The notes under the pieces are model-generated. The model saw only the letters and a list, made by a program, of their open reading frames with translations. It was not told the origin of the DNA and did no database searches. Positions 27,901 to 56,401 of a stretch of DNA of 64,000 nt are shown here, piece after piece (the first letter of the stretch is position 1; each line of letters opens with the position of its first letter). The position numbers were made by a program, and so were the translations under genes. The stretch comes from a virus. Its lineage: Duplodnaviria > Caudoviricetes. Location: IMG/VR virus record IMGVR_UViG_3300042561_002102; one strand, 5' to 3'.

Positions 27901-28009
27901 TTGGTATTTTGCCTTCACTCTTAGTGTTGCTCCTGGTAGTGGAACTCTTTATGAAATGAATAATTACAATCTTTCTGCCACATATAGTTTGGGCGAAAGT
28001 TGTGTATAG
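24917..28009 (+). CDS. Putative virion protein: N-terminal domain, long Thr/Pro stalk, LamG/ConA-like domain
   Basis: ~250-aa TP region; FTLSMWIEP...LTFVMDG...MFWNG...[15 protein letters not shown] is LamG-like. Confidence 0.8.
26015..26775 (+). repeat. Thr/Pro mucin-like coding repeats
   Basis: acacc/aca-rich tandem units. Confidence 0.9.
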
Positions 28010-34398: not shown

Positions 34399-36003
34399 TT
34401 ATACAGATTTACTTACAAGTAATTTTTCTTTAACAAAATATAAATAATCTATTTGTGTGTTTAAGAAACAATCTATGGCGTGCTTTGGTGTTTCTACAAT
34501 TGGTTCTTGGTTATTGAAAGAAGTGTTTAAAATCATCGGAACTCCTGTTTTTTCAAAAAACATCCTTATAAGATCATAGTAATATCCATTATCTTGTGAA
34601 GTTACTGTTTGAAGACGCGCAGTATTGTCGTTATGTAAAATAGCAGGTACAAATTGTCTTTTTTCTTCTCTCACAGGAACTGCAAAGCTCATGTAGGGAC
34701 TGTCTATATCAAATTCAAACCAATTTGGCACCTCTTCTCTCAATACCGAGGGAGCGAATGGTCGGTAACTTTTCCTGTGTTTAACTTTTAAATTGATAAG
34801 ATCTTTCATATATGCAAATCTTGGATCTGCTATAATACTTCGATTACCAAGAGCTCTTTTTCCTGATTCACTGCCTTCGTTGAATAGAGAAATTATTTTT
34901 GAACCTGTCAATAAATCTACTATCTTATCAACATCTATATTCTGAGTAATAGTTAGATTTTCATAGTTTGTAAGAGTATCTAAGACTTGTGATGAAGTAT
35001 AAGTTTTTCCCAAATAAGAGGTATGATGCTCTTGAACTCTTGGATTATCTAAAATATGATACCAAGTATATTTAGCAGCTCCTATTGATAGTCCACTATC
35101 ATTTGGTGCCTGATCACAAAATACGTTATATCCCTTTTCGATTAATATTTTAGATATTTTACCAAGTGCTACACAATTTAGAGAAACACCACCAGAAAAA
35201 CAAATATTTTTAATTTGTTTGGTGTCCGGCGTAGTGTCTAGATGGGAAAATACAAAATGTATCATCAACTCTTCTGTTGTGTATTGTAGAGCGGCTGCTA
35301 TATGAAATCTATTCTCGTCTGATTTTTGGATCTCTTCTCTAAAAAAAGTTATGAGTTCGGTATATTTCATATTGGAAGATTCTTGCCAAGCCCAAAGATT
35401 TTCAAATCTTAGTTCATTTATTTTAGATAAATATTTTGAATGATCACCAAATGATGCCATAGCCATTAATGTTCCTGATTCATCCCCTTTGGGCGAACAG
35501 GCAAATCCCATATCTAATACAGATTGTAGAAAGAATGTCCATATAGATCCTATATTGAAAGTATGTCCACGATATACTGGATATATTTTATTTTCATTTC
35601 CAAGAAAAACACAATTTGTGGCGAGATACCAATCGTTTTCAAAGCCGCCACCATCAAATGTGAATATTATAGATTTTTCGAAGTTAGAGTTATAAAAAAC
35701 AGATGATGCGTGACAAGTATGATGTCCTACATAATCAATTTTTTTTCCTGTCTCGGTGAATATTTCTTCACCTATATCTGTGTGCCAACCCCATACACTA
35801 ACAAACTGATCAAAATCTTCTATCTTGAAATCCTTAAAGATCAAATTCTTGATTGTATCTGAAAAGGGTGGTTTATTGTTAAAAAGGCCATCGTGTTTTA
35901 TCCTAGTAAATCTTTCTAGTTCATTATGTAGAACTATTTTACCATTTTCTATTACACAATAAGATGCGTCATGTGGGGTAGAGGCATAAGATAATATTCT
36001 CAT
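34399..36003 (-). CDS. Carbamoyltransferase (NodU/CmcH/TobZ family)
   Basis: HDAS, ELERFTRIKH, HHTCHA, GGVSLNC, RALGNRS, RPFAPS, TARLQTV, LNTSFN. Confidence 0.93.
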   Translation of the reverse strand: MRILSYASTPHDASYCVIENGKIVLHNELERFTRIKHDGLFNNKPPFSDTIKNLIFKDFKIEDFDQFVSVWGWHTDIGEEIFTETGKKIDYVGHHTCHASSVFYNSNFEKSIIFTFDGGGFENDWYLATNCVFLGNENKIYPVYRGHTFNIGSIWTFFLQSVLDMGFACSPKGDESGTLMAMASFGDHSKYLSKINELRFENLWAWQESSNMKYTELITFFREEIQKSDENRFHIAAALQYTTEELMIHFVFSHLDTTPDTKQIKNICFSGGVSLNCVALGKISKILIEKGYNVFCDQAPNDSGLSIGAAKYTWYHILDNPRVQEHHTSYLGKTYTSSQVLDTLTNYENLTITQNIDVDKIVDLLTGSKIISLFNEGSESGKRALGNRSIIADPRFAYMKDLINLKVKHRKSYRPFAPSVLREEVPNWFEFDIDSPYMSFAVPVREEKRQFVPAILHNDNTARLQTVTSQDNGYYYDLIRMFFEKTGVPMILNTSFNNQEPIVETPKHAIDCFLNTQIDYLYFVKEKLLVSKSV

Positions 36004-36665: not shown

Positions 36666-38162
36666 ATGTTAGTCGATGCTGTTTATATTTCACCAAAAAA
36701 GAAACTACTGGTTTCATACGTAGATAAAACCGGTAATATCAAATTTAAAAACTATAACTGGACCAATCCAAAAAGATATATTACATGTGATAGTGGAGAT
36801 CCAGATAAACATCCAAAATACAAATCTTGGGATGGTAAGTGTGCTAAGTTAGTAGATACCGATAATCCTGATAGATACGCTATTTACGAGTATCTAGATG
36901 CTCTTCCCGAAGCTGAAAGAGATATTCTTTTTGAGTATAATCTACCTAAAATTTACTTCATTGATATCGAAACCGAGATCGTAGATGGTTTTCCAACAGC
37001 CGAAGATACACCTACACAAGTTCTCTCAATTTCTATTGTTTATGACGATAAAATTATATTACTTGGTCTAAAAGATCTCTCGATTGAATCTCAAGAAAAA
37101 ATCATTTCAGATACCAACGAATATTTCAAAGATTTCAAAGCAGATTATAAACTTAAATACTTGAAATACGACGATGAGTTCGATCTATTGAACTCTTTTT
37201 TCAACAAGATGGTTCCACAAATGCCCCTTCTAACGGGTTGGAACTTCCTTGATTACGACTGGAAATATCTAGTTAATCGTTCTAGAAAACTTAAAAAGAT
37301 TATTAACGGTGTTGAATATACAATCGATCCGAATGTATCGTCACCAACCAAAAGAATGAGTAAAATCTGGATGAAAGAGATTGATATTCCCCAACATCGT
37401 ATGGTGTTTGACTATATGCAACTCTACGAGATTTGTGATACTTCAATCAAAGTTAAAGAATCATCTTCTTTGGATTTTGTAGCTAATAAACTGACTGGAA
37501 CTCAGAAGATTAAATATTCAGGTTCGTTACAAAAACTTTATGAAGATGACTTTGAGCTATTCATGTATTACAACGCAGTTGACTCGGTGCTAGTTCAAAA
37601 GATACACGATGTCAAAAATTACATCTCTATTATTTTCGCTATATCGTGCCTTGCTAAAATAAAGATTGTTGATGTTATTTCTCAAATGAATAACTCTCTA
37701 GCTTCTCTTGCTATTACTGAAGGTGTGTTGAGATGTAGATTCAGAGAAGAAGAGAATATGGTATTATTCAAAGAAGAGAAAAAAGGAGCCGACGCAGAAG
37801 GATTGAGTGGTGGTTGGGTTAAAGATCCGGTTGTAGGTATGAATAAGTGGTGTGCTATTTATGATTTTGCATCACTTTATCCTACGACCCAGCGTCAGTT
37901 CTACATAGCTCCTGAGACTTGTCTTGGTAAAAAAGATAAAGCTCGGCCTACACACACCGAGAGTGGTATTGAGATCCAAAGTGACAAACATGTACTATGC
38001 GTGAATGATGTTATTTTTGAGAAAAGAGATTCACCAACACTAAGAATGCTGAAAGATGTTTATTCTGATAGAAAAAAGAATAAAAAGATAATGCTTCAAA
38101 GAAAAGAAGAGCTTAAAGAAGTTCAAGAAAAAATAAAAAAATTAGAAGCTAGTCTTCTGTAA
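36666..38162 (+). CDS. gp43: Family B DNA polymerase, N-terminal half (exonuclease plus motif A) of a split enzyme
   Basis: ExoI FIDIETE, ExoII TGWNFLDYD, ExoIII YNAVDS, motif A YDFASLYP; ends before KxxxNSxYG and YGDTDS. Confidence 0.9.
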   Translation: MLVDAVYISPKKKLLVSYVDKTGNIKFKNYNWTNPKRYITCDSGDPDKHPKYKSWDGKCAKLVDTDNPDRYAIYEYLDALPEAERDILFEYNLPKIYFIDIETEIVDGFPTAEDTPTQVLSISIVYDDKIILLGLKDLSIESQEKIISDTNEYFKDFKADYKLKYLKYDDEFDLLNSFFNKMVPQMPLLTGWNFLDYDWKYLVNRSRKLKKIINGVEYTIDPNVSSPTKRMSKIWMKEIDIPQHRMVFDYMQLYEICDTSIKVKESSSLDFVANKLTGTQKIKYSGSLQKLYEDDFELFMYYNAVDSVLVQKIHDVKNYISIIFAISCLAKIKIVDVISQMNNSLASLAITEGVLRCRFREEENMVLFKEEKKGADAEGLSGGWVKDPVVGMNKWCAIYDFASLYPTTQRQFYIAPETCLGKKDKARPTHTESGIEIQSDKHVLCVNDVIFEKRDSPTLRMLKDVYSDRKKNKKIMLQRKEELKEVQEKIKKLEASLL

Positions 38163-38171
38163 AAACCAAAA

Positions 38172-39824
38172 ATGTCACTATACAAAGATGTAAATAGATT
38201 CAAACCAAGGCAAGAGCAAGTAGATTGCCTTGAGCATATGAAAGTTGTTTTAGATGAAAATCCAAAAACAAAGTTTTTTCTACTGAACCTTCCGGTCGGA
38301 ACTGGTAAATCACATCTAGCGATGATGTTTTCAGATTACTATACCAGAAAGATAAATAAAACTGCGAAAATCGATATCGTAACAGCTTCGAAAATCCTAC
38401 AAGATCAATACGAGGATGAGTATGTAAGTATTTGTAATCTCAAAGGTAAAGAAAACTATAACTGTCAGCAGTATAGCTGCTCGTGTATGCAGGGTAAAGA
38501 GTTTGGAAAACTTAATAAATCTCCCTGTGATATGTGCCCCTATGACGAAGCTAGAAACGGTTGGATTGGTGGTAAAATTTCTCTTACTAACTTCTACCTC
38601 TATCTTATTTATACAATTTATAATGAAAAACTACTCGATCTGAGAAGTCCAAATGTTTTAATCGTAGATGAAGCTCATGAACTTGATTCGGTGATATCTG
38701 ATTTTATTTCTATTAAAATTACAGAAAACACAATCAAAAAGTTGAAGTTTCCAGATGAAAGAGGTATTATCAATAAACTCAAACGTGTTACGAATATCGC
38801 CACCTACATTAACTTTCTAAAAGAGTTTGTTATTGATATTTCAGAGAATATAGCTGAGCTTCAAAAAACGATGGGTGAATCACCAAGAAGTGCGAAAGCC
38901 GACAGACGTGAAAATAGAATAGGAAAAATCACTGGTAGTAAAAACCCTGATATGAAGCTCATGAATATCTTGAATGATCTGACAAGCTATATCACCAAGA
39001 TTGAACTTTTTCTAAAAGAATGGGAAGCCACACCAGACAATTGGGTATTAGAAACTAACTGGAACGAAAAGACACGTCAAAAAGAACTCTCACTTGAACC
39101 TATCTGGTCACAAGAATACTTGAATAAATATCTTTGGTCTAAGTATGATCTAGTTATTTTAATGTCTGGAACTATTATTGATAAGGAACTTTTTTGTGAT
39201 ATCAATGGTATCAATCCAAAAGAGGCTATTTATTACTCTATACCTTCCCCTTTTGATGCTCAGAATAGAAAGATTTTCTATTTACCGATGGGGAAAATGT
39301 CTTGGGAGAAAAAAGAAGAAACTTTCAAGAACTATGTCGAGGTCTTACCGAAAATCTTGAAAAAATATTCCGGTAAAAAAGGTATTATCCATACGAACTC
39401 GTTTGAGCTTTCTGGTTGGATAAAAGAGGCGGTATCGGATGATAGACTACTTTTTCATGATAGTGATAATAAAAATGAAATTTTACAACATCACTACCAA
39501 ACCGACAAGCCTTCGGTGATTGTTTCACCATCGATGTCCACAGGTGTTTCTTTTGATCATGATAGAGCTAGATTTCAGGTGATTGCTAAGATTCCCTACC
39601 CAAGTCTTGGTTCTCAGAAAAATAAAATGAGAAAGCAGCAAAATCCAAACTATTACGCCTGGAAAACTTGCTGTGGTATTATACAAATGTGTGGAAGAGC
39701 TGTTCGTTCACATACAGACTTCGCTGATACGATTATTATTGATTCGTCTTTTGGTGATGTTTTGAGGTATTCATCTAAGTATTTACCTCAATGGTTTTTG
39801 AGTTCAGTTCAGAGTAAAGGTTAG
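38172..39824 (+). CDS. DinG/Rad3-like SF2 helicase
   Basis: PVGTGKS, DEAH, MSGT, Cys cluster, QMCGRAVR. Confidence 0.88.
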   Translation: MSLYKDVNRFKPRQEQVDCLEHMKVVLDENPKTKFFLLNLPVGTGKSHLAMMFSDYYTRKINKTAKIDIVTASKILQDQYEDEYVSICNLKGKENYNCQQYSCSCMQGKEFGKLNKSPCDMCPYDEARNGWIGGKISLTNFYLYLIYTIYNEKLLDLRSPNVLIVDEAHELDSVISDFISIKITENTIKKLKFPDERGIINKLKRVTNIATYINFLKEFVIDISENIAELQKTMGESPRSAKADRRENRIGKITGSKNPDMKLMNILNDLTSYITKIELFLKEWEATPDNWVLETNWNEKTRQKELSLEPIWSQEYLNKYLWSKYDLVILMSGTIIDKELFCDINGINPKEAIYYSIPSPFDAQNRKIFYLPMGKMSWEKKEETFKNYVEVLPKILKKYSGKKGIIHTNSFELSGWIKEAVSDDRLLFHDSDNKNEILQHHYQTDKPSVIVSPSMSTGVSFDHDRARFQVIAKIPYPSLGSQKNKMRKQQNPNYYAWKTCCGIIQMCGRAVRSHTDFADTIIIDSSFGDVLRYSSKYLPQWFLSSVQSKG

Positions 39825-40126
39825 TCTTGTGGCTTAGAGGCAAGAAGTTGTCTTCTTCTGGCAGCTCCTGCTTTTTGTCTAATCATCTTCATTATTTCTT
39901 CACGAGACTTTCTTTTGGGAGTTCTAGTCATAGAATTTCTCTCGGATCTTGATTCACCAAGTGGTGAGATACCCTCTGGCATATCATCATCACCTTCGAT
40001 AGTATCTTCTCCTTCGAGATCAAACTCAGTAATCTTTTCTTTACCCTTTAACATAGGTGAGTCTTGCTCTATATTTTGAATTTCCTGCTCTGGTTCGTAA
40101 TTTTCGAAAGTCTTTAAAAATTTCAT
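39821..40126 (-). CDS. Small hypothetical protein with CTS-like N-terminus
   Basis: MKFLKTFENY; TATATA upstream at ~40146. Confidence 0.8.
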   Translation of the reverse strand: MKFLKTFENYEPEQEIQNIEQDSPMLKGKEKITEFDLEGEDTIEGDDDMPEGISPLGESRSERNSMTRTPKRKSREEIMKMIRQKAGAARRRQLLASKPQD

Positions 40127-40284: not shown

Positions 40285-40315
40285 TTTGTATAGAGAGATA
40301 AAATGGGTATATTTG
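40285..40315 (+). promoter_or_regulatory. Bacteroidota-type housekeeping promoter
   Basis: TTTG (40285-88), 19-nt spacer, TATATTTG (40308-15), matching TTTG-N19-21-TAnnTTTG. Confidence 0.7.
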
Positions 40316-40331
40316 CATATAAATAGACTAT

Positions 40332-42785
40332 ATGAAGAAACTATTATCCTGGGCACTTAACGAGAAAGATGTTGAGAATTTTTGGAGAGCTCAACTTATG
40401 AAACTTTTTCCAGGTGGAAAAATGACCTCACCGTTCAATACAGACGGATATTTAGAGGATGACGGTGGTAAAGTCACTGTCTTGTTCGAAGCTAAATACG
40501 AACAAAATCTTAGCGATAAGTTGTCCCAGGTTTCTGTTTTATCTCAGACCTTATTCTACTTGAAAAAGTTTGAAAAAAATGGTCAAAGACTACCCAGAGT
40601 AGTTTTTATTGCTGATAGAAATGAAGCTTTCGCTCTACATACAAATTGTCTTGCAAAATATCTAGATTTTCCACTAGACTGGAACTCGGCAGCTTCGTCT
40701 AGTTCCAGATTGAATCCAGAGTTGATTTCTAAAATGTTAGAAGATGATACTATTTTACCTTTCGTTTTTAATGTAGTCGAAGGTTTCAATTTTGTAGCTA
40801 TTCAAAAAAAGATATTGAGTCTATCTCACGATGTAAAAAGATTAATAAAGATCACTGAGCACAACATCACTTCAGTGTTTGAATATTTTCAGAAAAATGT
40901 CTTAGTCAAGAATAAATTATCAGTCAATGAAACCGCTAATTTGTTTATTAACTTGATTATCAATCCTGAAGATAATTATCTACATCCAGTAAAAAGGCAT
41001 ACTCTAGTAACTAAATCGTTTGGTCCTATACAGATCAACGGTGAGAAGTTAATGGCATTTTTAGAGCACTTTGATGGTAATCAATATTGTATGGAAGAAA
41101 AAGAAAAACTTACTTCTATTGTTGATAGGCTTATCGAAGATGAAACAAGAAGAAGAAAAGGTGAGTTCTTCACACCTACAGTTTGGGTAGATGAAGCACA
41201 CAAGATGATCTCTGAAGCTTTTGGTGATAACTGGAAAGACGAGTATGTTGTGTGGGATCCCGCTTCGGGAACACTTAACTTGACCCGGGATTATCATTTT
41301 AGGGAGTTATACTGCTCAACTATTGAGGCGTCGGATTTACAAACAGCCGATCAGATGGGATATAATCCAGAGGCAGTCAAGTTTCAGTATGATTTTCTTA
41401 ATGATGGTATAGTTGATGGTAATATTGATATTGAAGGTGATACAAAATTACCAGAGGGTTTGAAAAGAGCTCTGTTAGAGGGTAAGAAGATGATTGTTTT
41501 GATGAATCCACCTTATGGAACTGCTAATAATGCCGGAACCACAGAAGGTGATCATAAATCAGGCATCGCCATGACCGAACTGAATAAGATGATGAAAGTT
41601 GAAAAATGGGGCGCTTCGTCTCAACAACTATATGCGCAATTTCTGTTTAGATTGACTAAGTATCACAATCTGAAAATTTGTCTTTTTTCTCCACCACTTT
41701 TTATGAGTGGAAGTTCTTATAAAGAATTCAGAAAAAAGTATTTTGATTTTTATGGATTTGATAGAGGATTTCTTATGAATGCAGGTGAATTTGATGGAAC
41801 ATCTGATTGGGGGTTGTCTTTCACAATTTGGTCAGATGTGAACAATGACAGAACTGATTTTGAGCTAAGTGTTGGAAGTTCTAATGAACTTGGTGATGTT
41901 GAGTTTTTTACAAATAAACTTATCTATAACTTAGATAATAAATTAGAAGCCTCGAAATGGGTTAGGTCGCCATTGAAAGGATTGAAAACTTTTGATGTTC
42001 CAAATTTTTCTAGTGGATTAAAACTCAAAAATTCTGGTATATGTAAAGTTATCAAAAATAATCTAGGTTATTCATACAGTGATAATAATAATATTGCTAA
42101 AAATAATCAGAGTGTTGGGTTATATAGTCTGTCCAACGCTGCTGCTCATGGATTTTCTATCAATGAATCTAATTTTATAATTTCATCCTGTCTATTCACT
42201 TCTAGAAGACTTATTTCTGGAAAACAAGCCACGTGGATAAATTGGTGTGACGAATATATGGCACCAGATGAATCACATCCACTTTGGGAACAATTTAGTT
42301 TAGATTCTATTGTCTATTCTCTATTTGAATCCAAATCAAACCAATCCTCCCTTCGTCAAATAGATTACAAAGACAAAAAGTGGGACATCAAGAATGAATT
42401 TTTCTGGATGTCTAAATCTGATATGTTAAAACTAGCATCGGATCATTCTTATGATGAACTCTATCGTGACGCCAGAACAACTGAAGAAAGACACGTCTAT
42501 AATCTTCTTCATAATGAGGGTATATACTCTCGTCTTTCACCTGACGCTCGTGAGGTTCTTGATATGGCAACAGAACTTGTTAAAAAGTCATTCCCTATGA
42601 GAAAACCACTCAATGAACAACATCCAGAGTATCACTTAAATACTTGGGACGCAGGTTGGTACCAAATCAAACTTATACTCAAAAAGTTCTATCCCGCTGA
42701 ACTTATCGAATTCGGTAGAAAATACAGAGCCTTTGAGGACAGAATGAGACCACTCGTGTATGAGGTTGGATTTTTGAGGAAATAA
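40332..42785 (+). CDS. Type IIG-like restriction endonuclease / N6-adenine methyltransferase fusion
   Basis: N-terminal TDG...FEAK (PD-(D/E)xK), GEFFTP, motif I VWDPASGT, motif IV NPPY, TRD-like C-terminus. Confidence 0.8.
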   Translation: MKKLLSWALNEKDVENFWRAQLMKLFPGGKMTSPFNTDGYLEDDGGKVTVLFEAKYEQNLSDKLSQVSVLSQTLFYLKKFEKNGQRLPRVVFIADRNEAFALHTNCLAKYLDFPLDWNSAASSSSRLNPELISKMLEDDTILPFVFNVVEGFNFVAIQKKILSLSHDVKRLIKITEHNITSVFEYFQKNVLVKNKLSVNETANLFINLIINPEDNYLHPVKRHTLVTKSFGPIQINGEKLMAFLEHFDGNQYCMEEKEKLTSIVDRLIEDETRRRKGEFFTPTVWVDEAHKMISEAFGDNWKDEYVVWDPASGTLNLTRDYHFRELYCSTIEASDLQTADQMGYNPEAVKFQYDFLNDGIVDGNIDIEGDTKLPEGLKRALLEGKKMIVLMNPPYGTANNAGTTEGDHKSGIAMTELNKMMKVEKWGASSQQLYAQFLFRLTKYHNLKICLFSPPLFMSGSSYKEFRKKYFDFYGFDRGFLMNAGEFDGTSDWGLSFTIWSDVNNDRTDFELSVGSSNELGDVEFFTNKLIYNLDNKLEASKWVRSPLKGLKTFDVPNFSSGLKLKNSGICKVIKNNLGYSYSDNNNIAKNNQSVGLYSLSNAAAHGFSINESNFIISSCLFTSRRLISGKQATWINWCDEYMAPDESHPLWEQFSLDSIVYSLFESKSNQSSLRQIDYKDKKWDIKNEFFWMSKSDMLKLASDHSYDELYRDARTTEERHVYNLLHNEGIYSRLSPDAREVLDMATELVKKSFPMRKPLNEQHPEYHLNTWDAGWYQIKLILKKFYPAELIEFGRKYRAFEDRMRPLVYEVGFLRK

Positions 42786-42867
42786 TACTATATAATTAAA
42801 CAACATAATTTCAAATTATATAAATGATAACCTTGATACAGCTTCAGGGTAAAAAAAAAATCATAGT

Positions 42868-44478
42868 ATGAATAATAATCAATTAGATCATTACGAACAA
42901 CCAGATGTTGAATTAAAAGATTTTTCAACAAATCAACAAAAACACAAAATCATCTTTACACCTAGATCTTTACAAGATATGGTGAAAGGTTCAGGATTTA
43001 CATTTAATCAATCTATAGCAGAATTTATCGATAATTCTTTAGATGCTGGCTCTACAAAAATAGAAATAAGTGCTAGGCGTCAAAAAAATGATTATTTTTC
43101 TATAGAAATAAAAGATAATGGAAGTGGTATGTCTGATGATATACTAGAAAAATTTACACAAATAGGTTATGGAAACCCGGAAAATTACTCTACTACACAA
43201 ATTTCTAATTATGGTTTAGGTGCGAAATTTGCTATAATCAACATTTGTAAAGAAGGCCCGGTCGTTATTGAAAGTGTATCTAATGGAAATAAAATAAAAT
43301 TGAATTTTTATACAGATATACAAGAACCTTATGTTTCAATTGAAAAAAAGGAAATTACTAACGAGGCTAATTATACAAAATTATACATACCTAATCTTGA
43401 GGTTAATGGTGCTAAAATTTCTAAAAATCAACTTGATTCTCTAAAAAAATTTATAGGCGCCACCTATTTTCCACACATAGAACGCGGAAATCCTTTGAAA
43501 ATTGAATTTTCCGTAGATAGAGAAGAACCAGTTAGTATAGATTTCACAGATCCCATTTATAGAAATTTAACAGAAAGGGACGGAGTAGAGAAAAATGATG
43601 AACAATGTATGATAGATGGATACCTAATCTCAGTAAGAGGAAGGTGGTTCAATAAAATGCTATTTTCTACAGATAATTTCAATTTACACGACAGTAAACA
43701 AGGTGGAACTGGTTTTGCTGCAGCTAGAAGTGGGATTTATTGGAGACTCAACGGAAGATATATCAAAATGGGTGATGGGGATTTTATGAGTAGAGATTCT
43801 TTTCAACAAAAACTTAATCATTTAAGAATAGAGGTGGATTTAGATAGAGTTTTTATTGAAACTTTTGGTATAGGGTTCAATAAATCTAAAATTTCAATTG
43901 ATCGAAACAATGAAAAATTGAAAGATTTTTTCAATTTAATAAACGATATCATTAAATGGGCTGAGAAAAAATACATAGATCAAAATAAACAAAATACCTC
44001 ACAAGATCCAGAAATTACAGAAGAAAGAGACAATATAAATAGAGATCTTTCTGCTATTAGAAGACAAATAGGTCATGAAAATTATAATGAGCTTTTACCA
44101 GAACTCTCAAAAGCTAAAGTCTTAACAGAAAAAGAAAAAACCGAGAAAACCAAAAATAGACCTGATGGATTGCAATATAAAAAATCTAACCTTCAGTTTA
44201 GGTATGTCAACAATGGAAAGTTTGATAGAGCTTTTGGTTACGGTAAAGAAAACGGTCAATTGGTCGTAGATCTAAATTTGGATCATCCATTTGTTGAAAA
44301 TTATATAAAAGCAGATAGATCGTCGAAAAAAGCTTTTGATATGATGCTTTTATCCTTCATAGAGGGATTACTTGATACTAGACGTGAATTCAACTCTGAT
44401 GTAGATTTTGCTAATTGGGAAGATTACATGGTAGACAACTTCAGTCGTAGAATGTCCAGGTACTTTACACACTATTGA
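42868..44478 (+). CDS. MORC-type GHKL ATPase
   Basis: AEFIDNSLDA, DNGSGM, SNYGLGAK; S5-like GIYWRLNGR; C-terminal LNLDHPF. Confidence 0.85.
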   Translation: MNNNQLDHYEQPDVELKDFSTNQQKHKIIFTPRSLQDMVKGSGFTFNQSIAEFIDNSLDAGSTKIEISARRQKNDYFSIEIKDNGSGMSDDILEKFTQIGYGNPENYSTTQISNYGLGAKFAIINICKEGPVVIESVSNGNKIKLNFYTDIQEPYVSIEKKEITNEANYTKLYIPNLEVNGAKISKNQLDSLKKFIGATYFPHIERGNPLKIEFSVDREEPVSIDFTDPIYRNLTERDGVEKNDEQCMIDGYLISVRGRWFNKMLFSTDNFNLHDSKQGGTGFAAARSGIYWRLNGRYIKMGDGDFMSRDSFQQKLNHLRIEVDLDRVFIETFGIGFNKSKISIDRNNEKLKDFFNLINDIIKWAEKKYIDQNKQNTSQDPEITEERDNINRDLSAIRRQIGHENYNELLPELSKAKVLTEKEKTEKTKNRPDGLQYKKSNLQFRYVNNGKFDRAFGYGKENGQLVVDLNLDHPFVENYIKADRSSKKAFDMMLLSFIEGLLDTRREFNSDVDFANWEDYMVDNFSRRMSRYFTHY

Positions 44479-44640
44479 AAGAACTTAAATTTTTCAATTT
44501 TTATTCCACTTTTTTTATTTTTATTCGTATTATTGTCTAATAAAATACAAAGAACTCTATCTGATAACGAATCAATATGTCCATTCAAAGTATTTTTACA
44601 AAAAACTCGTGCTGGACGAAGAAAAAAATAATTTATTAAA

Positions 44641-45285
44641 ATGATAAGAACTTTTCATCAATTTATTCGACAAACATGTTGGAAATCAGATGACAAATAT
44701 GCTATAATAGGAACAATTCATCCACATAGAGTAGATGATTTTGATCTGAACTTTTTTTATGGAAATAAGGGTTTTCTCTGGAGCATACTCGGACAAGCTT
44801 TTCCAAATCTAGATTTTACAACCGTAGAATCTATAAAAAGAATACTATCGAGAAATCGTATTTGGATTACAGATATGATTGAAGAATGTAGTAGGCCACA
44901 TGAGAGAGAAACCAGAGATAGTCATCTATATGATTTGAAATTGAATACTAAACTTATAGAAGAAGGTCTTCGGGGATCACAAATTGATACTATATTTCTA
45001 ACTTCAAGATTTGAAAGGAATAACGCTGCTGAATTGTTTATAAGAGCTTTTGGTTTAGATCTTTTATCATGGAACGAAGAATTATCACAGTTCATTATAC
45101 CTTCTTCTAAATTTGGTAGAGAAATCAGAGCAGTAGTTCTCTTCTCACCGTCTGGTCGTGCGAATCTTGGTATTTCTAGATCAAAATCATATCTAGCCAG
45201 TAAAGATAGATACGGTCAAGAAAAGAATCCAGTGGCTTTATTCAAGATTGATTTTTATAGAGATAAATTCGCATTCTTAGTATAA
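44641..45285 (+). CDS. Uracil-DNA glycosylase superfamily (Mug-like) protein
   Basis: IIGTIHP, FFYGN..FLW, IWITD, C-terminal LFSPSG. Confidence 0.65.
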   Translation: MIRTFHQFIRQTCWKSDDKYAIIGTIHPHRVDDFDLNFFYGNKGFLWSILGQAFPNLDFTTVESIKRILSRNRIWITDMIEECSRPHERETRDSHLYDLKLNTKLIEEGLRGSQIDTIFLTSRFERNNAAELFIRAFGLDLLSWNEELSQFIIPSSKFGREIRAVVLFSPSGRANLGISRSKSYLASKDRYGQEKNPVALFKIDFYRDKFAFLV

Positions 45286-45306: not shown

Positions 45307-46080
45307 ATGACAAACAACTTTAGAGTCTTAAAATGGAAAGATCATTCGCAAAGTATCGATCTAGCTCAAGATTTTCTAGAAAATATCAAATCTTCTCTAT
45401 TTGAGGCGAAAACCGAAAACGATGAAAATGAAATAAAAAAGTTTCTCGAAAAAGTTAAAGCGGACCTTTCTCTAAACTTTGCCTTTGCCTCTACTTTTGG
45501 AACCGGTGTTGGATTTGCTCTACCTATTGTTAAAGATCTTATAGAAAATGGGAATCTTCAAATCGAAGCTTCTTCAGAAAACTTGATACTTCTTACGATT
45601 ACTTGTTTTACTATAACCTACTTAGAAATCAAAAAAGGTCAACTAGAACCTTTACAAGTAGATCTTCTTAGAAAAGATTCAAAAAGTCTTCTTACAGAAC
45701 TTAAACTCAGAGGTATTGGTGGTGGCATTGTTAAAAAAGTTATTCAAGTTTTTGAGGTCATTTCTCAGATTTTCAACTACATTTTCAAGGCTTTCGGTCT
45801 AGTTGTTCAGGGATTTTTAGATATTTTTGCCTATACAACGATTCTTGTTCCTTTTATGAACGGCGTGAAACATATCGTAGGTAAATACGATCTCACGGTT
45901 GATAATTTTGTAGGAAACTTTACTTCACTTGGTATTGGTGTTACTTCACTTGTTGCTAAGCATGGAATAAACTACATCAAATCAAAACTCAAGAAGAACC
46001 TTGGTAAAGATTTTGATGGATTAGATACAACGAAATCTTCACAAAACGAAGTAGAAATAATACAAGATAAGTTTTTTTAG
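45307..46080 (+). CDS. Hypothetical membrane-associated protein
   Basis: Several Gly-rich hydrophobic segments; TATATA 6 nt upstream. Confidence 0.75.
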   Translation: MTNNFRVLKWKDHSQSIDLAQDFLENIKSSLFEAKTENDENEIKKFLEKVKADLSLNFAFASTFGTGVGFALPIVKDLIENGNLQIEASSENLILLTITCFTITYLEIKKGQLEPLQVDLLRKDSKSLLTELKLRGIGGGIVKKVIQVFEVISQIFNYIFKAFGLVVQGFLDIFAYTTILVPFMNGVKHIVGKYDLTVDNFVGNFTSLGIGVTSLVAKHGINYIKSKLKKNLGKDFDGLDTTKSSQNEVEIIQDKFF

Positions 46081-53989: not shown

Positions 53990-56401
53990 ATGATAAAATT
54001 TTACTCGTCCAGACTTCTCAATAAAGTAGAAAAAACTACAATATCTGGAGTAGCCAAAACTTCTTTTTTTACAGAAATATCTACGGGTGTTTCTCCTGGA
54101 ACCAGAATGTTTATTCTGAACGGTAACTACGACTCGAATGATTTCATTCGTAAAAGTAGATATGGTAAATTTGTGGATGGTTATCGAGTATTGAGAAGTG
54201 AAGCCAATAAACTTACACTTGATATAGATTGGACCGGGCTTCCACCAACGGGTGACGCACTATCCGGAAATTCTATCAACATCTGGGTTGTAAGAACAAA
54301 ATCAGAGTTTGATTATTTGGATAGTATTCTTGTGGATCTATACGATACGAGATGTTCAAAATTTGAATATCGTATTACTTCTAATGTTATCTATACTGAG
54401 AACTTAGTGTTTACCAATCAGTTTTTTATTAAAGGTTTCTGGGCAAAAGATGGTAATACTTGGAAACTTATATCAACACATTTCGATCAAGGTTTTATTA
54501 ACTATTTCTTACCAAAATGGACCGATTATGGATATTCTACGAACTATAAAATAAAGATAAGAAATCATGGTTTTGTTTATAAAAATCAAGAGTTTATTAA
54601 AGGAGCTACCTACTTTTTCAACAATCCTGTTTGGCTTTATGATATACAAGTAGCAAATTCTTTTATATCTCGTCTTAATTTTAGAGATGGTCTTTTCAAG
54701 GGAACTTTCAAAGACGGATTATTTGGTAGCAACGAGAAAAAGTTACTTTTCGAAGCTAAATGGATGTCGGGTATTACCATCAACTCACAAATAAAAGATT
54801 CACAAATAAGAACTAAATCTCAAGTAGGTGAAAATGTTACACTTGGGTTTGTTCAAGATAACATTATTAACTTCTTTTCTGATAAGAGTAACAACGATAG
54901 TTATGGTCTTAGTTACTTTTTTGATTCAACAATTGAAAGTGCTCAGATTTATGCTGGTAATTTCATCAATTGTAACTTTGCTTGTGATCTAAATCCTGAA
55001 GTTACAGATATCATACCTACAACAACTACCAATTGTCTTCAATACGGCAATTGTTGTACTACAACAACTACAACTACTTCTACATCAACCACTTCTACTA
55101 CAACACTCTGTCCGTGTTGCGATCCAACACCATCGGTAACACAAACAAATACACAATCACCAACAATTTCACTCACCCCAACTATCACACCAACAAATAC
55201 TGGAACACCAACAAATACCGAAACACCAACCGAAACACCTACAAATACATCAACCAATACGGAAACTCCCACAAACACTTCAACTCAGACAACTACACCA
55301 ACAATTACCGATACTCCTACGCAAACTCCAACCGAAACACCCACATCTACAATAACAGTTACAAATACTGAAACACCAGGTACGTCACCATCTGAAACCC
55401 CTACCGAAACTCCGACTGAAACTCCTACACCAACACACACAAATACCGAAACTCCTACAAACACACCCACTGTTACACCAACAATCTCTTATTATTTTTA
55501 CTTTCTTTTAGACTGTGATTTGAGTAATAATAAAATAGGTAGAAGTATTTCAAGTAGTCTAACCGGAACTTACAATGTCTCACCTAACAAGTGCTATCAA
55601 ATAGCAGGAATAGATTTAGGCCCTTCTTGGGATTATGATCTAGACATCTCAACCTCTGTTGCAAATTGTTCTGATATTTTGTGTATCCCTGTTACACCGA
55701 CACAAACACCTACACCAACAATTACCGATACTCCTACCGAGACCCCAACTCAAACACCAACCAATACTGAAACACCAACCGAAACTCCAACGGAGACCCC
55801 AATCGAAACACCAACCGAAACACCTACACCAACAATTACTGATACTCCTACCGAGACTCCAACTCAAACCTCAACCAGTACAGAGACACCAACAAATACC
55901 GAAACACCGGGTGCGTCACCATCCGAAACCCCTACTGAAACACCTACGCCGACAAATACCGATACTCCTACGGAGACACCAACTCAAACACAAACACAGA
56001 CACCTACTGAAACACCTATACCGACAAATACCGAAACACCAACCGAAACTCCTACGGAGACACCTACTGAAACACCAACTGAAACACCAACCAATACCGA
56101 AACACCAACTGAAACTCCTACGGAGACACCTACTGAAACACCAACTCAAACACCAACCAATACCGAAACACCGACTGAAACTCCTACGGAGACACCTACT
56201 GAAACACCAACTGAAACACCAACACAGACACCTACTGAAACATCTACACCAACACCTACACCAACACAGACACCTACTGAAACATCCACACCAACACCTA
56301 CACCAACAATAACACCAACTGAGACTGAAACATTTTTCTTATTACAAGAAAATCTATCCACACTACTCCAGGAAAATGGTTCAAGAATACTAATCAATTG
56401 A
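53990..56401 (+). CDS. Putative virion protein with two long Thr/Glu/Pro stalks
   Basis: ~340-aa globular N-terminus, CC-TTTT linker, TETP repeats, short interstalk domain. Confidence 0.85.
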   Translation: MIKFYSSRLLNKVEKTTISGVAKTSFFTEISTGVSPGTRMFILNGNYDSNDFIRKSRYGKFVDGYRVLRSEANKLTLDIDWTGLPPTGDALSGNSINIWVVRTKSEFDYLDSILVDLYDTRCSKFEYRITSNVIYTENLVFTNQFFIKGFWAKDGNTWKLISTHFDQGFINYFLPKWTDYGYSTNYKIKIRNHGFVYKNQEFIKGATYFFNNPVWLYDIQVANSFISRLNFRDGLFKGTFKDGLFGSNEKKLLFEAKWMSGITINSQIKDSQIRTKSQVGENVTLGFVQDNIINFFSDKSNNDSYGLSYFFDSTIESAQIYAGNFINCNFACDLNPEVTDIIPTTTTNCLQYGNCCTTTTTTTSTSTTSTTTLCPCCDPTPSVTQTNTQSPTISLTPTITPTNTGTPTNTETPTETPTNTSTNTETPTNTSTQTTTPTITDTPTQTPTETPTSTITVTNTETPGTSPSETPTETPTETPTPTHTNTETPTNTPTVTPTISYYFYFLLDCDLSNNKIGRSISSSLTGTYNVSPNKCYQIAGIDLGPSWDYDLDISTSVANCSDILCIPVTPTQTPTPTITDTPTETPTQTPTNTETPTETPTETPIETPTETPTPTITDTPTETPTQTSTSTETPTNTETPGASPSETPTETPTPTNTDTPTETPTQTQTQTPTETPIPTNTETPTETPTETPTETPTETPTNTETPTETPTETPTETPTQTPTNTETPTETPTETPTETPTETPTQTPTETSTPTPTPTQTPTETSTPTPTPTITPTETETFFLLQENLSTLLQENGSRILIN
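55015..56330 (+). repeat. TETP/TNTETP coding repeats (two blocks)
   Basis: 12-bp gaaacaccaac-like units. Confidence 0.9.

What the first reader, a model, noticed from the sequence alone, without database searches (positions are those of the whole stretch)
40285..45285. Candidate phage-borne defence cassette: type IIG REase-MTase + MORC ATPase + UDG-superfamily glycosylase
Seen: three co-oriented genes lie between core-type genes, and the first has a perfect Bacteroidota host promoter (TTTG-N19-TATATTTG), which would allow expression right after entry. The REase motif (TDG...EAK), MTase motifs (DPASGT, NPPY) and GHKL motifs all look intact. Established: prokaryotic MORC ATPases are typically embedded in restriction-modification operons. 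Inference: a lytic jumbo phage carries a three-part DNA-targeting system for excluding competing phages or degrading host DNA while methylating itself. I do not recognise this IIG+MORC+UDG combination as a named system.
Basis: partly seen in the sequence, partly recalled or inferred. Interest (0 to 1): 0.82.

Follow-up and report, generated by a model that had tools for sequence, protein, structure and literature searches.

The report
Three unlinked DNA-conflict genes in jumbo phage
The first belongs to a very large, unannotated family of phage restriction-methylation enzymes whose DNA-recognition module is swapped between near-identical phages, and the other two are separately acquired passenger genes in a variable slot beside it.

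Summary
Observation confirmed. Three co-oriented ORFs (40332-42785, 42868-44478, 44641-45285) carry the motifs described.

Fold and profile evidence supports all three identities:
- ORF1 matches type IIG/IIL enzymes (DrdV, Z 20.8).
- ORF2 is a MORC-like GHKL ATPase (MORC2, E 1e-11).
- ORF3 has a UDG-superfamily fold (TDG/MUG, Z 12).

The three-part system is not supported:
- ORF1 belongs to a family of >2,500 clusters on huge-phage contigs. None of 84 homolog loci (up to 10 kb of flank each side) carries a relative of ORF2 or ORF3, and no neighbour is conserved.
- The trio recurs only on two short contigs of strain-level relatives. A sister phage (PolB piece 96% identical) keeps ORF1 but has other cargo in that slot, including a PADLOC defence-candidate gene.
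- ORF2 occurs alone at 89% nucleotide identity next to a classical type II RM system.
- ORF3's relatives are stand-alone Bacteroidota chromosomal genes, and none was found in IMG/VR.

The notable result concerns ORF1:
- No Pfam, PADLOC, PHROG or NCBIfam model detects the family.
- Nuclease and methylase motifs are near-invariant.
- Nine near-identical alleles carry eight different target-recognition modules.
- Variants exist with inteins, as split genes and as methylase-only forms.

Other first readers of this scan noted split relatives of ORF1 in other genomes.

The parts
40285..40315 (+). Bacteroidota-type promoter-like site (TTTG-N19-TATATTTG), 17 nt upstream of the ORF1 ATG
   Evidence: Exact match, but 0.63 matches are expected by chance. 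The -7 box and 5' leader are conserved in L122, L123 and L003. Function is inferred, not shown.
40332..42785 (+). ORF1 (P0001, 817 aa): single-chain type IIG-like enzyme. Domain order is PD-(D/E)xK nuclease, helical linker, gamma-class N6-adenine methyltransferase, target-recognition domain, conserved C-terminal helical domain.
   Evidence: AF2 model, pLDDT 85.7. Foldseek top hits are DrdV, BpuSI, MmeI and BsaXI. VIA-align gives DrdV Z 20.8 over model residues 1-586, and M.TaqI, CamA and MmeI over the C-terminal half. Catalytic motifs are invariant. No Pfam, PADLOC, PHROG, NCBIfam or PDB sequence hit.
40332..40780 (+). N-terminal nuclease domain of ORF1 with D38...E53-x-K55 (codons at 40443-40445, 40488-40490, 40494-40496)
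   Evidence: The model shows alpha-beta-beta-beta-alpha-beta order, with D38 just before strand 39-42 and E53/K55 at the end of strand 49-54. Aligned with DrdV and BsaXI from residue 1. D38 90/92, E53 90/92, K55 89/92.
41142..41831 (+). Methyltransferase core of ORF1: motif X GEFFTP, motif I DPASGT, motif IV NPPY
   Evidence: Structural matches to type I HsdM, M.TaqI and PacII at Z 17-19. Inteins sit inside motif I in four homologs.
41499..42371 (+). Hypervariable cassette of ORF1 (about aa 390-680: distal methylase core plus target-recognition domain), exchanged between near-identical phages
   Evidence: L122 is 99-100% nt identical outside this segment and 42-72% inside it. Nine alleles with 90-100% identical N-termini carry 8 recognition-domain types at 25-64% identity. 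The same pattern is seen across 54 homologs.
42868..44478 (+). ORF2 (P0002, 536 aa): MORC-like GHKL ATPase with no recognised effector domain
   Evidence: Pfam HATPase_c_3 1.2e-19. The profile's best PDB matches are MORC2 (1.2e-11), then Topo VI-B and PMS2/MutL. PADLOC and NCBIfam MzaB match the N-terminal ~100 aa only, far below cut-off. Atlas structural neighbours are HATPase_c_3 clusters, some carrying Morc6_S5.
42807..44494 (+). Segment shared at 89% nt identity with the unrelated contig L008: ORF2 plus 61 bp upstream and 16 bp downstream
   Evidence: blastn of the window against L008 matches nothing else. In L008 the neighbours are a type II MTase (PADLOC MTase_II 7e-111), an HTH_3 protein and a 301-aa ORF.
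44641..45285 (+). ORF3 (P0003, 214 aa): UDG-superfamily fold protein with invariant GTIHPH and SPSGxAN motifs
   Evidence: AF2 pLDDT 91.6. TDG/MUG Z 11.7-12.0 and 2l3f Z 11.1. Foldseek hits are UDG families only. AFDB cluster hits are named DNA-deoxyinosine glycosylase or UDG-like. Invariant residues. No Pfam or NCBIfam hit.
38172..39824 (+). Left syntenic anchor: XPD/DinG-like helicase. The 101-aa minus-strand ORF at 39821-40126 is also syntenic.
   Evidence: 95% aa identity in L003, where three extra genes are inserted between this anchor and the ORF1 homolog.
45307..46080 (+). Right syntenic anchor of the variable slot: 257-aa ORF of unknown function
   Evidence: 59% aa identity to the ORF at L003 15239-15793, which lies after four different cargo genes. 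No family hit.

Best explanation
The region holds three functionally independent DNA-conflict or DNA-maintenance genes that are adjacent only in one narrow phage lineage.

ORF1 is a stand-alone, single-polypeptide type IIG-like restriction-methylation enzyme of a large family found on huge-phage contigs. Inferred mechanism: the recognition domain binds a short asymmetric site. The gamma-class methylase marks an adenine there with SAM, which protects the phage's own replicating DNA. The N-terminal PD-(D/E)xK domain cuts unmarked DNA, either host DNA or the DNA of co-infecting phages. The recognition module is exchanged by recombination between otherwise identical phages, as expected if rare specificities are favoured in phage-phage or phage-host conflict.

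The slot between ORF1 and the 257-aa gene is a variable cargo site. In this lineage it holds a MORC-like GHKL ATPase, a rare gene that travels on its own and tends to land beside adenine-methylase or RM genes. It also holds a UDG-fold glycosylase-like gene captured from a Bacteroidota host, most likely a base-excision repair enzyme related to hypoxanthine/mismatch glycosylases.

Shown here: folds, motifs, distribution, lack of co-occurrence, cassette swapping. Inferred: all enzymatic activities, the targets, and the timing of expression.
For: ORF1 fold and architecture: DrdV Z 20.8 (model 1-586), BsaXI, MmeI, BpuSI, and M.TaqI/CamA for the C-terminal half.

Purifying selection on both active sites: D38/E53/K55 in 89-90 of 92 and NPP[YF] in 91 of 92 representatives.

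Family size: >2,514 clusters at 90% identity and 1,499 at 50%. Members lie on IMG/VR contigs up to 673 kb and on LR756498.1, a 332-kb record with a Gp23 capsid gene.

Stand-alone status: 0 of 84 loci have ORF2 or ORF3 relatives within the flanks held, up to 10 kb each side. The commonest neighbour family occurs in only 14 of 82 loci.

Cassette swap: L122 is 99-100% nt identical except about aa 390-680, where identity is 42-72%. There are 8 recognition-domain types among 9 near-identical alleles, with mosaic incongruence between segments.

Modularity: split forms break at the methylase/recognition-domain junction in L046, L062 and L056.

Variable slot: L003 (PolB piece 96%, helicase 95% aa) keeps ORF1. 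In place of ORF2 and ORF3 it carries a 638-aa PDC-S02/PDC-S11-like gene (4e-39, 3e-16) and three others.

ORF2 autonomy: only 42807-44494 is shared with L008. Its other homologs sit by D12 Dam-type methylases.

ORF3 origin: 45-53% identical proteins in Fontibacter, Mucilaginibacter and Mariniphaga, in housekeeping-type contexts without a GHKL gene. None was found in IMG/VR.
Against: The trio is kept, in the same order and spacing, in two relatives: L122 (96-99% nt identity) and L123 (80-87%). Selection for the arrangement within this lineage cannot be excluded.

In all four contexts seen, ORF2-family genes lie beside an adenine-methylase or RM gene (window, L008, L009, L010). That fits Iyer et al. 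2008 and could mean ORF2 works with whatever RM enzyme it lands next to.

No terminator was predicted between the three genes, so co-transcription is possible.

No activity of any of the three proteins was measured, and the nuclease domain was not folded and searched on its own.

The closest huge phages in the phage collection (LR745206.1 and LR756502.1) gave no ORF1 match, so ORF1 is widespread but not universal.
Confidence: 0.68

Rival explanations
1. Two-component reading. ORF1 and the MORC-like ATPase form a functional RM unit, with the ATPase looping or remodelling DNA between recognition and cleavage sites as Iyer et al. 2008 proposed for MORC-RM operons. ORF3 is an unrelated passenger.
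For: ORF2-family genes sit beside an adenine-methylase or RM gene in 4 of 4 contexts, involving three different methylase families. MORC-RM association is published (PMC2292703). ORF1 and ORF2 are 82 bp apart with no predicted terminator.
Against: 0 of 84 other ORF1-family loci have an ORF2 relative, so ORF1 works without it. ORF2 is shared with L008 as a single-gene segment with its own upstream region. ORF2 stays 97-99% identical while the ORF1 recognition module changes. Only about 11 homolog clusters exist, so the neighbourhood statistic rests on roughly three independent contexts.
Confidence: 0.17
2. All three genes cooperate as one phage-borne DNA-targeting system: the IIG enzyme cuts and marks, MORC assists, and the glycosylase attacks modified DNA of rivals.
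For: Adjacent, co-oriented, and conserved as a trio in L122 and L123. All three act on DNA by homology.
Against: No co-occurrence beyond strain-level relatives. Three different origins. ORF3 relatives are stand-alone chromosomal genes in bacteria and none was found in IMG/VR. The sister phage L003 replaces both ORF2 and ORF3. The L008 contig holds ORF2 but no ORF3 relative in the 825 bp downstream.
Confidence: 0.05
3. ORF1 acts mainly as a protective methylase that pre-empts host restriction. On this reading the recognition module tracks the specificities of host RM systems, and the nuclease is weak, regulatory or vestigial.
For: Methylase-only relatives lacking residues 1-265 exist in 6 of 84 loci. 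Inteins target methylase motif I. Phage methylases for anti-restriction are common in jumbo phages (PMC7824862).
Against: The nuclease triad is retained in 89-90 of 92 divergent full-length representatives, which argues for a selected catalytic function. 78 of 84 loci keep the N-terminal domain.
Confidence: 0.1

Closest known systems
Type IIG/IIL single-chain restriction-modification enzymes (DrdV, MmeI, BpuSI; BsaXI type IIB as a relative)
   Same: Same domain order: N-terminal PD-(D/E)xK nuclease, helical linker, gamma-class N6-adenine methylase with motifs X-I-IV, and a TaqI-like recognition domain. These are the best structural matches (Z 15-21). The recognition domain evolves modularly, as in the MmeI family.
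   Different: No sequence-level match to any Pfam (Eco57I, N6_Mtase, MmeI_*), PADLOC REase_MTase_IIG, NCBIfam or PDB sequence. At 817 aa it is shorter than DrdV and MmeI. It has a strongly conserved ~160-aa C-terminal helical domain. It is carried on huge-phage contigs rather than in bacterial defence islands. Intein-bearing, split and methylase-only variants exist. Cleavage and methylation are untested.
Prokaryotic MORC/paraMORC GHKL ATPases of RM neighbourhoods (Iyer, Abhiman and Aravind 2008, PMC2292703); MzaB; Tiamat
   Same: HATPase_c_3-type Bergerat fold with all ATP-binding boxes. Best PDB sequence match is human MORC2. A conserved Lys (K339) lies in the region where an S5 transducer domain would be. 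It sits next to methylase or RM genes.
   Different: No SFII helicase partner and no fused or adjacent recognisable nuclease. The MzaB match covers ~100 aa and scores 42 bits against a cut-off of 850. PADLOC listed no family other than MzaB at E <= 0.1. The C-terminal ~180 aa have no known family. Very rare (11 clusters) and phage- or metagenome-borne.
UDG superfamily, nearest family 2 (MUG/TDG) and the family-6-like protein 2L3F (hypoxanthine/deoxyinosine DNA glycosylases)
   Same: Whole-protein alpha/beta UDG fold (Z 11-12, 153-177 residues aligned). Motif A and motif B are in the expected positions. The FFYGN...LW block aligns with YYGN...FW of 2L3F.
   Different: Motif A is GTIHPH (His where MUG/TDG have the catalytic Asn) and motif B is SPSGxAN. 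No Pfam UDG or NCBIfam hit. The profile match to 2L3F is only E 0.078. Substrate unknown.
RM genes of chlorella viruses and phage P1 (from general knowledge, not tested here)
   Same: Virus-encoded restriction plus self-methylation used against host or rival DNA.
   Different: Those are multi-gene type II or type III systems. Here one chain carries all functions, and the family is spread across thousands of uncultivated phage contigs.

Membership tests
Type IIG restriction-modification enzyme | Nuclease and methyltransferase in one polypeptide, with an N-terminal PD-(D/E)xK domain | tested here: met
   Model aligns with DrdV from residue 1 to 586 (Z 20.8) and with BsaXI over 1-525. D38...E53xK55 lie on the expected strands and are near-invariant. 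The nuclease domain was not folded and searched alone.
Type IIG restriction-modification enzyme | Gamma-class N6-adenine methylase motifs in the order X (GxFxTP), I (DxxxGxG-like), IV (NPPY) | tested here: met
   GEFFTP 277-282, DPASGT 309-314, NPPY 392-395. Invariant G277, T281, G313 and NPP. Motif I lacks the second Gly.
Type IIG restriction-modification enzyme | C-terminal target-recognition domain that sets specificity | tested here: met
   Residues ~500-660 align with the M.TaqI, CamA and MmeI recognition domains. This is the least conserved part of the protein and is swapped between near-identical alleles.
Type IIG restriction-modification enzyme | SAM-dependent site-specific methylation, and cleavage at a fixed distance from the site | not testable with these tools
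   Needs enzyme assays or a methylome.
Type IIG restriction-modification enzyme | Recognised by curated sequence models (Pfam Eco57I/N6_Mtase/MmeI_*, PADLOC REase_MTase_IIG) | tested here: not met
   No hit at E <= 0.1 to 1. The A1 profile against PDB gives only 3ufb at E 0.062. Membership rests on fold and motifs only.
MORC / paraMORC ATPase | GHKL (Bergerat) ATP-binding domain of the HATPase_c_3 type with intact N, G1 and G2 boxes | tested here: met
   PF13589 1.2e-19. E52, D55, N56, D83, G85, G87, G116, G118 and K120 are invariant. MORC2 is the best PDB match.
MORC / paraMORC ATPase | S5-fold transducer domain after the GHKL domain, with an ATP-contacting Lys | tested here: inconclusive
   No Morc6_S5 Pfam hit. 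Atlas structural neighbours include clusters where 18-88% of members carry Morc6_S5 (TM 0.51-0.66). N338 and K339 are invariant.
MORC / paraMORC ATPase | Conserved operon with an SFII helicase and/or nuclease of an RM system | tested here: inconclusive
   A methylase or RM gene is adjacent in 4 of 4 contexts, but there is no helicase or nuclease partner conserved across them. The only helicase nearby is the XPD-like gene upstream of ORF1, which is part of the replication module.
MZA system (MzaB) | Full-length MzaB match plus MzaA/C/D/E partners | tested here: not met
   41.7 bits against a cut-off of 850, covering residues 38-133 only. No partner genes nearby.
UDG superfamily | Four-stranded parallel-sheet alpha/beta UDG fold over the whole protein | tested here: met
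   TDG Z 12.0 (171 aa, rmsd 3.5), MUG Z 11.7, 2l3f Z 11.1. Every Foldseek hit with E < 1e-3 is a UDG.
UDG superfamily | Catalytic motif A (e.g. GQDPY, GINPG, GEAPG) and motif B (HPSPLS, NPSGLS) | tested here: inconclusive
   The equivalent blocks GTIHPH and SPSGxAN are invariant in 31 homologs but match no described family consensus. His27 stands where MUG/TDG have Asn. This comparison uses consensus motifs recalled from the literature.
Multi-gene defence system (three-gene cassette) | Conserved co-occurrence of the components across unrelated genomes | tested here: not met
   0 of 84 ORF1-homolog loci carry ORF2 or ORF3 relatives. The trio occurs only in L122 and L123. L003 lacks both.
Multi-gene defence system (three-gene cassette) | Match to a named system in PADLOC | tested here: not met
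   Only a partial MzaB domain match for ORF2, and nothing for ORF1 or ORF3.

The most novel reading that the evidence does not exclude
ORF1 represents a phage-specific clade of type IIG enzymes, thousands of members strong and invisible to current profile libraries. On this reading huge phages use it as a self/non-self marker in phage-phage competition and to destroy host DNA, and specificity is renewed by cassette exchange of a detachable recognition module. The flank downstream of the gene would be a 'defence island' inside a virulent jumbo phage. There, accessory conflict genes such as the MORC-like ATPase, a PDC-S02/S11-like gene and a glycosylase turn over, and the ATPase may boost whichever RM enzyme it lands beside.
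Probability: 0.3. Interest if true: 0.7.

Novelty: new variant of a known kind. Interest (0 to 1): 0.45.

Why it matters
The proposed IIG+MORC+UDG system would have been a new defence architecture, and the comparative evidence argues against it. This prevents a false system from entering catalogues.

What remains is useful in three ways.

First, a very large family of single-chain restriction-methylation enzymes carried by uncultivated huge phages is missed by Pfam, PADLOC, PHROGs and NCBIfam. Defence and anti-defence surveys of viromes that rely on these libraries will therefore under-count phage-borne RM.

Second, the near-identical strains that differ only in the recognition cassette are a natural experiment on how specificity evolves. 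They offer ready-made chimeras for engineering new specificities.

Third, the family shows inteins in motif I, splitting at the methylase/recognition junction (in one case with a GIY-YIG homing endonuclease between the halves) and loss of the nuclease. Together these document the evolutionary routes between type IIG, two-subunit and orphan-methylase forms within one family.

Tried and rejected
- Pfam, PADLOC, PHROGs, NCBIfam and PDB sequence searches gave nothing for ORF1 and ORF3. The A1 profile against PDB gave only a marginal HsdM hit.
- blastn and tblastn of the region, ORF1 and ORF3 against 50,697 phage records found no match.
- No whole genome is held for this window.
- The ORF2 profile in IMG/VR found no relative. 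In GTDB genomes it found only GHKL-domain-level hits of 23-52% identity over 40-300 aa. The ORF3 profile in IMG/VR found none.
- I considered ORF2 as a T4 rIIA-type GHKL protein (idea from PMC7824862). I set this aside because its only PHROG matches are two families of unknown function and one annotated 'kinase', and because it is sporadic.
- I considered ORF2 as Topo VI-B or a topoisomerase subunit (NCBIfam top6b 3.5e-7). I set this aside because no Toprim/Spo11 partner is present, MORC2 scores better, and the gene is absent from the sister phage.
- I considered a Tiamat-like reading (bioRxiv 10.64898/2026.09.30.754977). PADLOC listed no Tiamat model at E <= 0.1, and ORF2 has no PD-(D/E)xK tail that I could recognise.
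- I looked for a conserved partner of ORF1 by clustering 1,282 neighbouring ORFs. None was found beyond lineage synteny.
- The sigma-70 promoter and terminator scan was uninformative: 36 promoter-like sites against 28.9 expected.
- Complex prediction was not run. The two full chains exceed the size limit and the report does not claim binding.
- Sequencing-run tools were not used because they cannot show methylation.

Full report
WHAT IS THERE

The window is phage DNA. It encodes a large terminase, a clamp loader, a prohead protease, a PolB fragment, XPD-like and DnaB-like helicases and an RNR large subunit. The protein of ORF1 is also recorded on a 335-kb contig. The nearest phage records by the helicase are the 634-642-kb uncultured huge phages LR745206.1 and LR756502.1, at 57-58% aa identity.

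Between the XPD-like helicase (38172-39824) and a 257-aa ORF (45307-46080) lie three + strand ORFs, at 40332-42785, 42868-44478 and 44641-45285.
- ORF1: TDG...EAK (D38, E53, K55), GEFFTP, DPASGT and NPPY.
- ORF2: the GHKL N, G1 and G2 boxes.

The TTTG-N19-TATATTTG site at 40285-40315 is real. It is the only such match in 64 kb, against 0.63 expected by chance. With a relaxed spacer there are 6 matches against 3.0 expected. Its -7 box and leader are conserved in four relatives. It is a plausible host-type promoter and nothing more.

GENE IDENTITIES

ORF1 has no hit in Pfam, PADLOC, PHROGs, NCBIfam or PDB sequences. An AlphaFold2 model built on 54 homologs (pLDDT 85.7) matches the type IIG/IIL enzymes DrdV, BpuSI, MmeI and BsaXI best.
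- VIA-align gives DrdV Z 20.8 over model residues 1-586.
- Type I HsdM and M.TaqI score Z 17-19 on the methylase core.
- M.TaqI, CamA, M.BseCI and MmeI cover the C-terminal recognition part.

The model's N-terminal alpha-beta-beta-beta-alpha-beta unit places D38 and E53-x-K55 where a PD-(D/E)xK site is expected.

ORF2 is a HATPase_c_3 GHKL ATPase. Its family profile hits human MORC2 best (1.2e-11), ahead of Topo VI-B and PMS2/MutL. Atlas neighbours are prokaryotic HATPase_c_3 proteins, some with a Morc6_S5 domain. Its MzaB match is a domain-level match far below cut-off.

ORF3 (model pLDDT 91.6) has a UDG-superfamily fold:
- TDG/MUG Z about 12 and the family-6-like 2L3F Z 11.1.
- AFDB cluster hits are named DNA-deoxyinosine glycosylase.
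- The invariant blocks GTIHPH and SPSGxAN correspond to UDG motifs A and B but fit no described family.

IS IT ONE SYSTEM?

No, on present evidence.

(1) ORF1 is a family of its own.
- More than 2,514 clusters at 90% identity and 1,499 at 50%.
- Nearly all about 810-830 aa.
- Found on IMG/VR contigs of up to 673 kb and on LR756498.1 (332 kb), which carries a Gp23 capsid gene nearby.

(2) The other two genes are absent from its relatives' flanks. Of 84 loci encoding an ORF1 homolog, each with up to 10 kb on either side, none has a relative of ORF2 or ORF3. Clustering 1,282 neighbouring ORFs found no partner beyond lineage synteny; the largest family is in 14 of 82 loci.

(3) The trio recurs only at strain level. 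It is seen in L122 (96-99% nt identity) and L123 (80-87%). L003 keeps the flanking replication genes, with PolB 96% and helicase 95% identical. It also keeps the ORF1 homolog and the 257-aa gene. In between, it carries four other genes. One is a 638-aa protein matching the PADLOC defence candidates PDC-S02 (4e-39) and PDC-S11 (3e-16). L003 also has three extra genes upstream of the ORF1 homolog. The ORF1 alleles of L123 and L003 are 98% identical over the N-terminal 380 aa, so slot content turned over among close relatives.

(4) ORF2 moves alone. Contig L008 shares only 42807-44494 with the window, at 89% nt identity. There the gene lies by a classical type II RM unit (MTase_II 7e-111, an HTH_3 controller and a 301-aa ORF). 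More distant homologs lie by D12 Dam-type methylases in L009, which also carries a terminase gene, and in L010. The family is tiny, with 11 clusters. No relative was found in IMG/VR, and GTDB genomes gave domain-level matches only.

(5) ORF3 comes from the host side. The only named relatives among its 45-53% identical homologs are from Bacteroidota (Fontibacter, Mucilaginibacter, Mariniphaga). They sit singly among housekeeping genes with no GHKL gene nearby. None was found in IMG/VR.

WHAT ORF1 LOOKS LIKE AS A FAMILY

Both active sites are under strong constraint. Among 92 full-length representatives that are no more than 50% identical to each other:
- D38 90/92, E53 90/92, K55 89/92.
- G277 and T281 92/92, G313 92/92.
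- NPP[YF] 91/92.

Residues ~390-680, and above all 510-650, are the least conserved part and behave as an exchangeable cassette.
- The L122 allele is 99-100% nt identical to the window's on both sides and 42-72% identical inside.
- Nine alleles with 90-100% identical N-termini and 92-100% identical C-termini carry eight recognition-domain types at 25-64% identity.
- Groupings are incongruent between segments.

This is the signature of recombinational specificity switching known from type I and MmeI-like enzymes. It argues that sequence specificity is under diversifying selection, which in turn argues that ORF1 is a working conflict gene rather than a housekeeping methylase.

Four further variants show modularity and age:
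- Inteins inserted inside motif I (WDxx | C...GN | CGT) in four homologs, one with a LAGLIDADG domain.
- Genes split at the methylase/recognition-domain junction, into about 491-496 aa plus 267-307 aa, in L046, L062 and L056. In L056 a GIY-YIG endonuclease gene lies between the halves.
- Methylase-only forms lacking residues 1-265 in 6 of 84 loci.
- First readers of other windows in this scan had independently noted split relatives in other genomes. I confirmed the phenomenon only on my own loci.

MECHANISM (INFERRED)

ORF1 would bind an asymmetric site through the recognition domain and methylate an adenine with SAM, so that the phage's own DNA is marked. It would cut unmarked DNA through the N-terminal nuclease. 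The targets would be host DNA or co-infecting phages that carry another cassette.

ORF2 would be an ATP-driven DNA clamp or remodeller. Its tendency to lie by methylase genes agrees with Iyer et al. 2008 (PMC2292703), and a facultative helper role for ORF1 cannot be excluded (rival, 0.17).

ORF3 is most simply a base-excision glycosylase of host origin. A Brig1-like attack on modified rival DNA, suggested in another first-reader note, is possible but has no support here.

NOVELTY AND SCORE

The claimed new three-part system is not supported. The components are divergent members of known superfamilies.

The ORF1 family is a phage-borne, profile-invisible clade of type IIG-like enzymes with documented cassette switching. 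It deserves an HMM and a biochemical test. In the few full-text searches run I found no paper describing it.

Interest is 0.45. Novelty is a new variant of a known kind.

Noticed in passing
window 36666-38162; also L003 2098-3594 and L122 564-2060: The family-B DNA polymerase is present only as a 498-aa N-terminal piece (exonuclease domain plus the start of the polymerase domain, PHROG positions 19-500 of 856). The same 498-aa ORF is conserved in two relatives. The scanned ORFs between 34399 and 52452 gave no C-terminal half.
   Followed up: partly
L003 10455-12371 (sister phage, the slot downstream of the ORF1 homolog): A 638-aa protein matches the PADLOC defence candidates PDC-S02 (4e-39) and PDC-S11 (3e-16) and Pfam DUF8426 + DUF4268. 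It occupies the place of ORF2 and ORF3. This suggests a cargo hotspot for conflict genes inside a jumbo phage.
   Followed up: partly
proteins P0194, P0199, P0224, P0245 (homologs of ORF1): Inserts of 209-346 aa sit exactly inside methylase motif I. They begin with Cys-Tyr, end in Gly-Asn and are followed by Cys. One carries a LAGLIDADG domain. They are probable inteins in a restriction-methylation enzyme.
   Followed up: partly
L046 9959-12240; L062 9944-12239; L056 788-4263: ORF1 homologs are split into a nuclease+methylase ORF (491-496 aa) and a recognition/C-terminal ORF (267-307 aa). In L056 a 349-aa GIY-YIG endonuclease gene on the opposite strand lies between the halves.
   Followed up: partly
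L041, L048, L069, L070, L073, L090: These are shorter relatives of ORF1 that start at about residue 265 (methylase, recognition domain and C-terminal domain only). No nuclease part was detectable in up to 10 kb upstream, so they are orphan-methylase derivatives.
   Followed up: partly
locus without DNA (169.9-kb contig); L015 8087-9509; L062 12241-12882: In one sub-lineage the ORF1 homolog is followed by a DUF6576 protein and a sigma-70-like factor. In another phage a GmrSD_N+HNH (type IV restriction-like) gene lies directly upstream.
   Followed up: no
window 34399-36003 (-): A NodU/CmcH-type carbamoyltransferase (PHROG 'Nol-like', 1.3e-109) lies next to the replication module. It is conserved in L003. 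Its substrate is unknown.
   Followed up: no
window 1-2529(-), 15724-17451(-), 24917-28009, 53990-56401: Four large proteins share a region matching phrog_15511 (unknown function). This is a repeated domain family scattered through the window.
   Followed up: no
L005 398-4993 (Fontibacter flavus): A 1,531-aa type IIG-like enzyme (DUF7149, DUF559, Eco57I, N6_Mtase, TaqI_C) lies 2 kb upstream of the bacterial ORF3 homolog. This is a single case and is not seen in L006 or L007.
   Followed up: no
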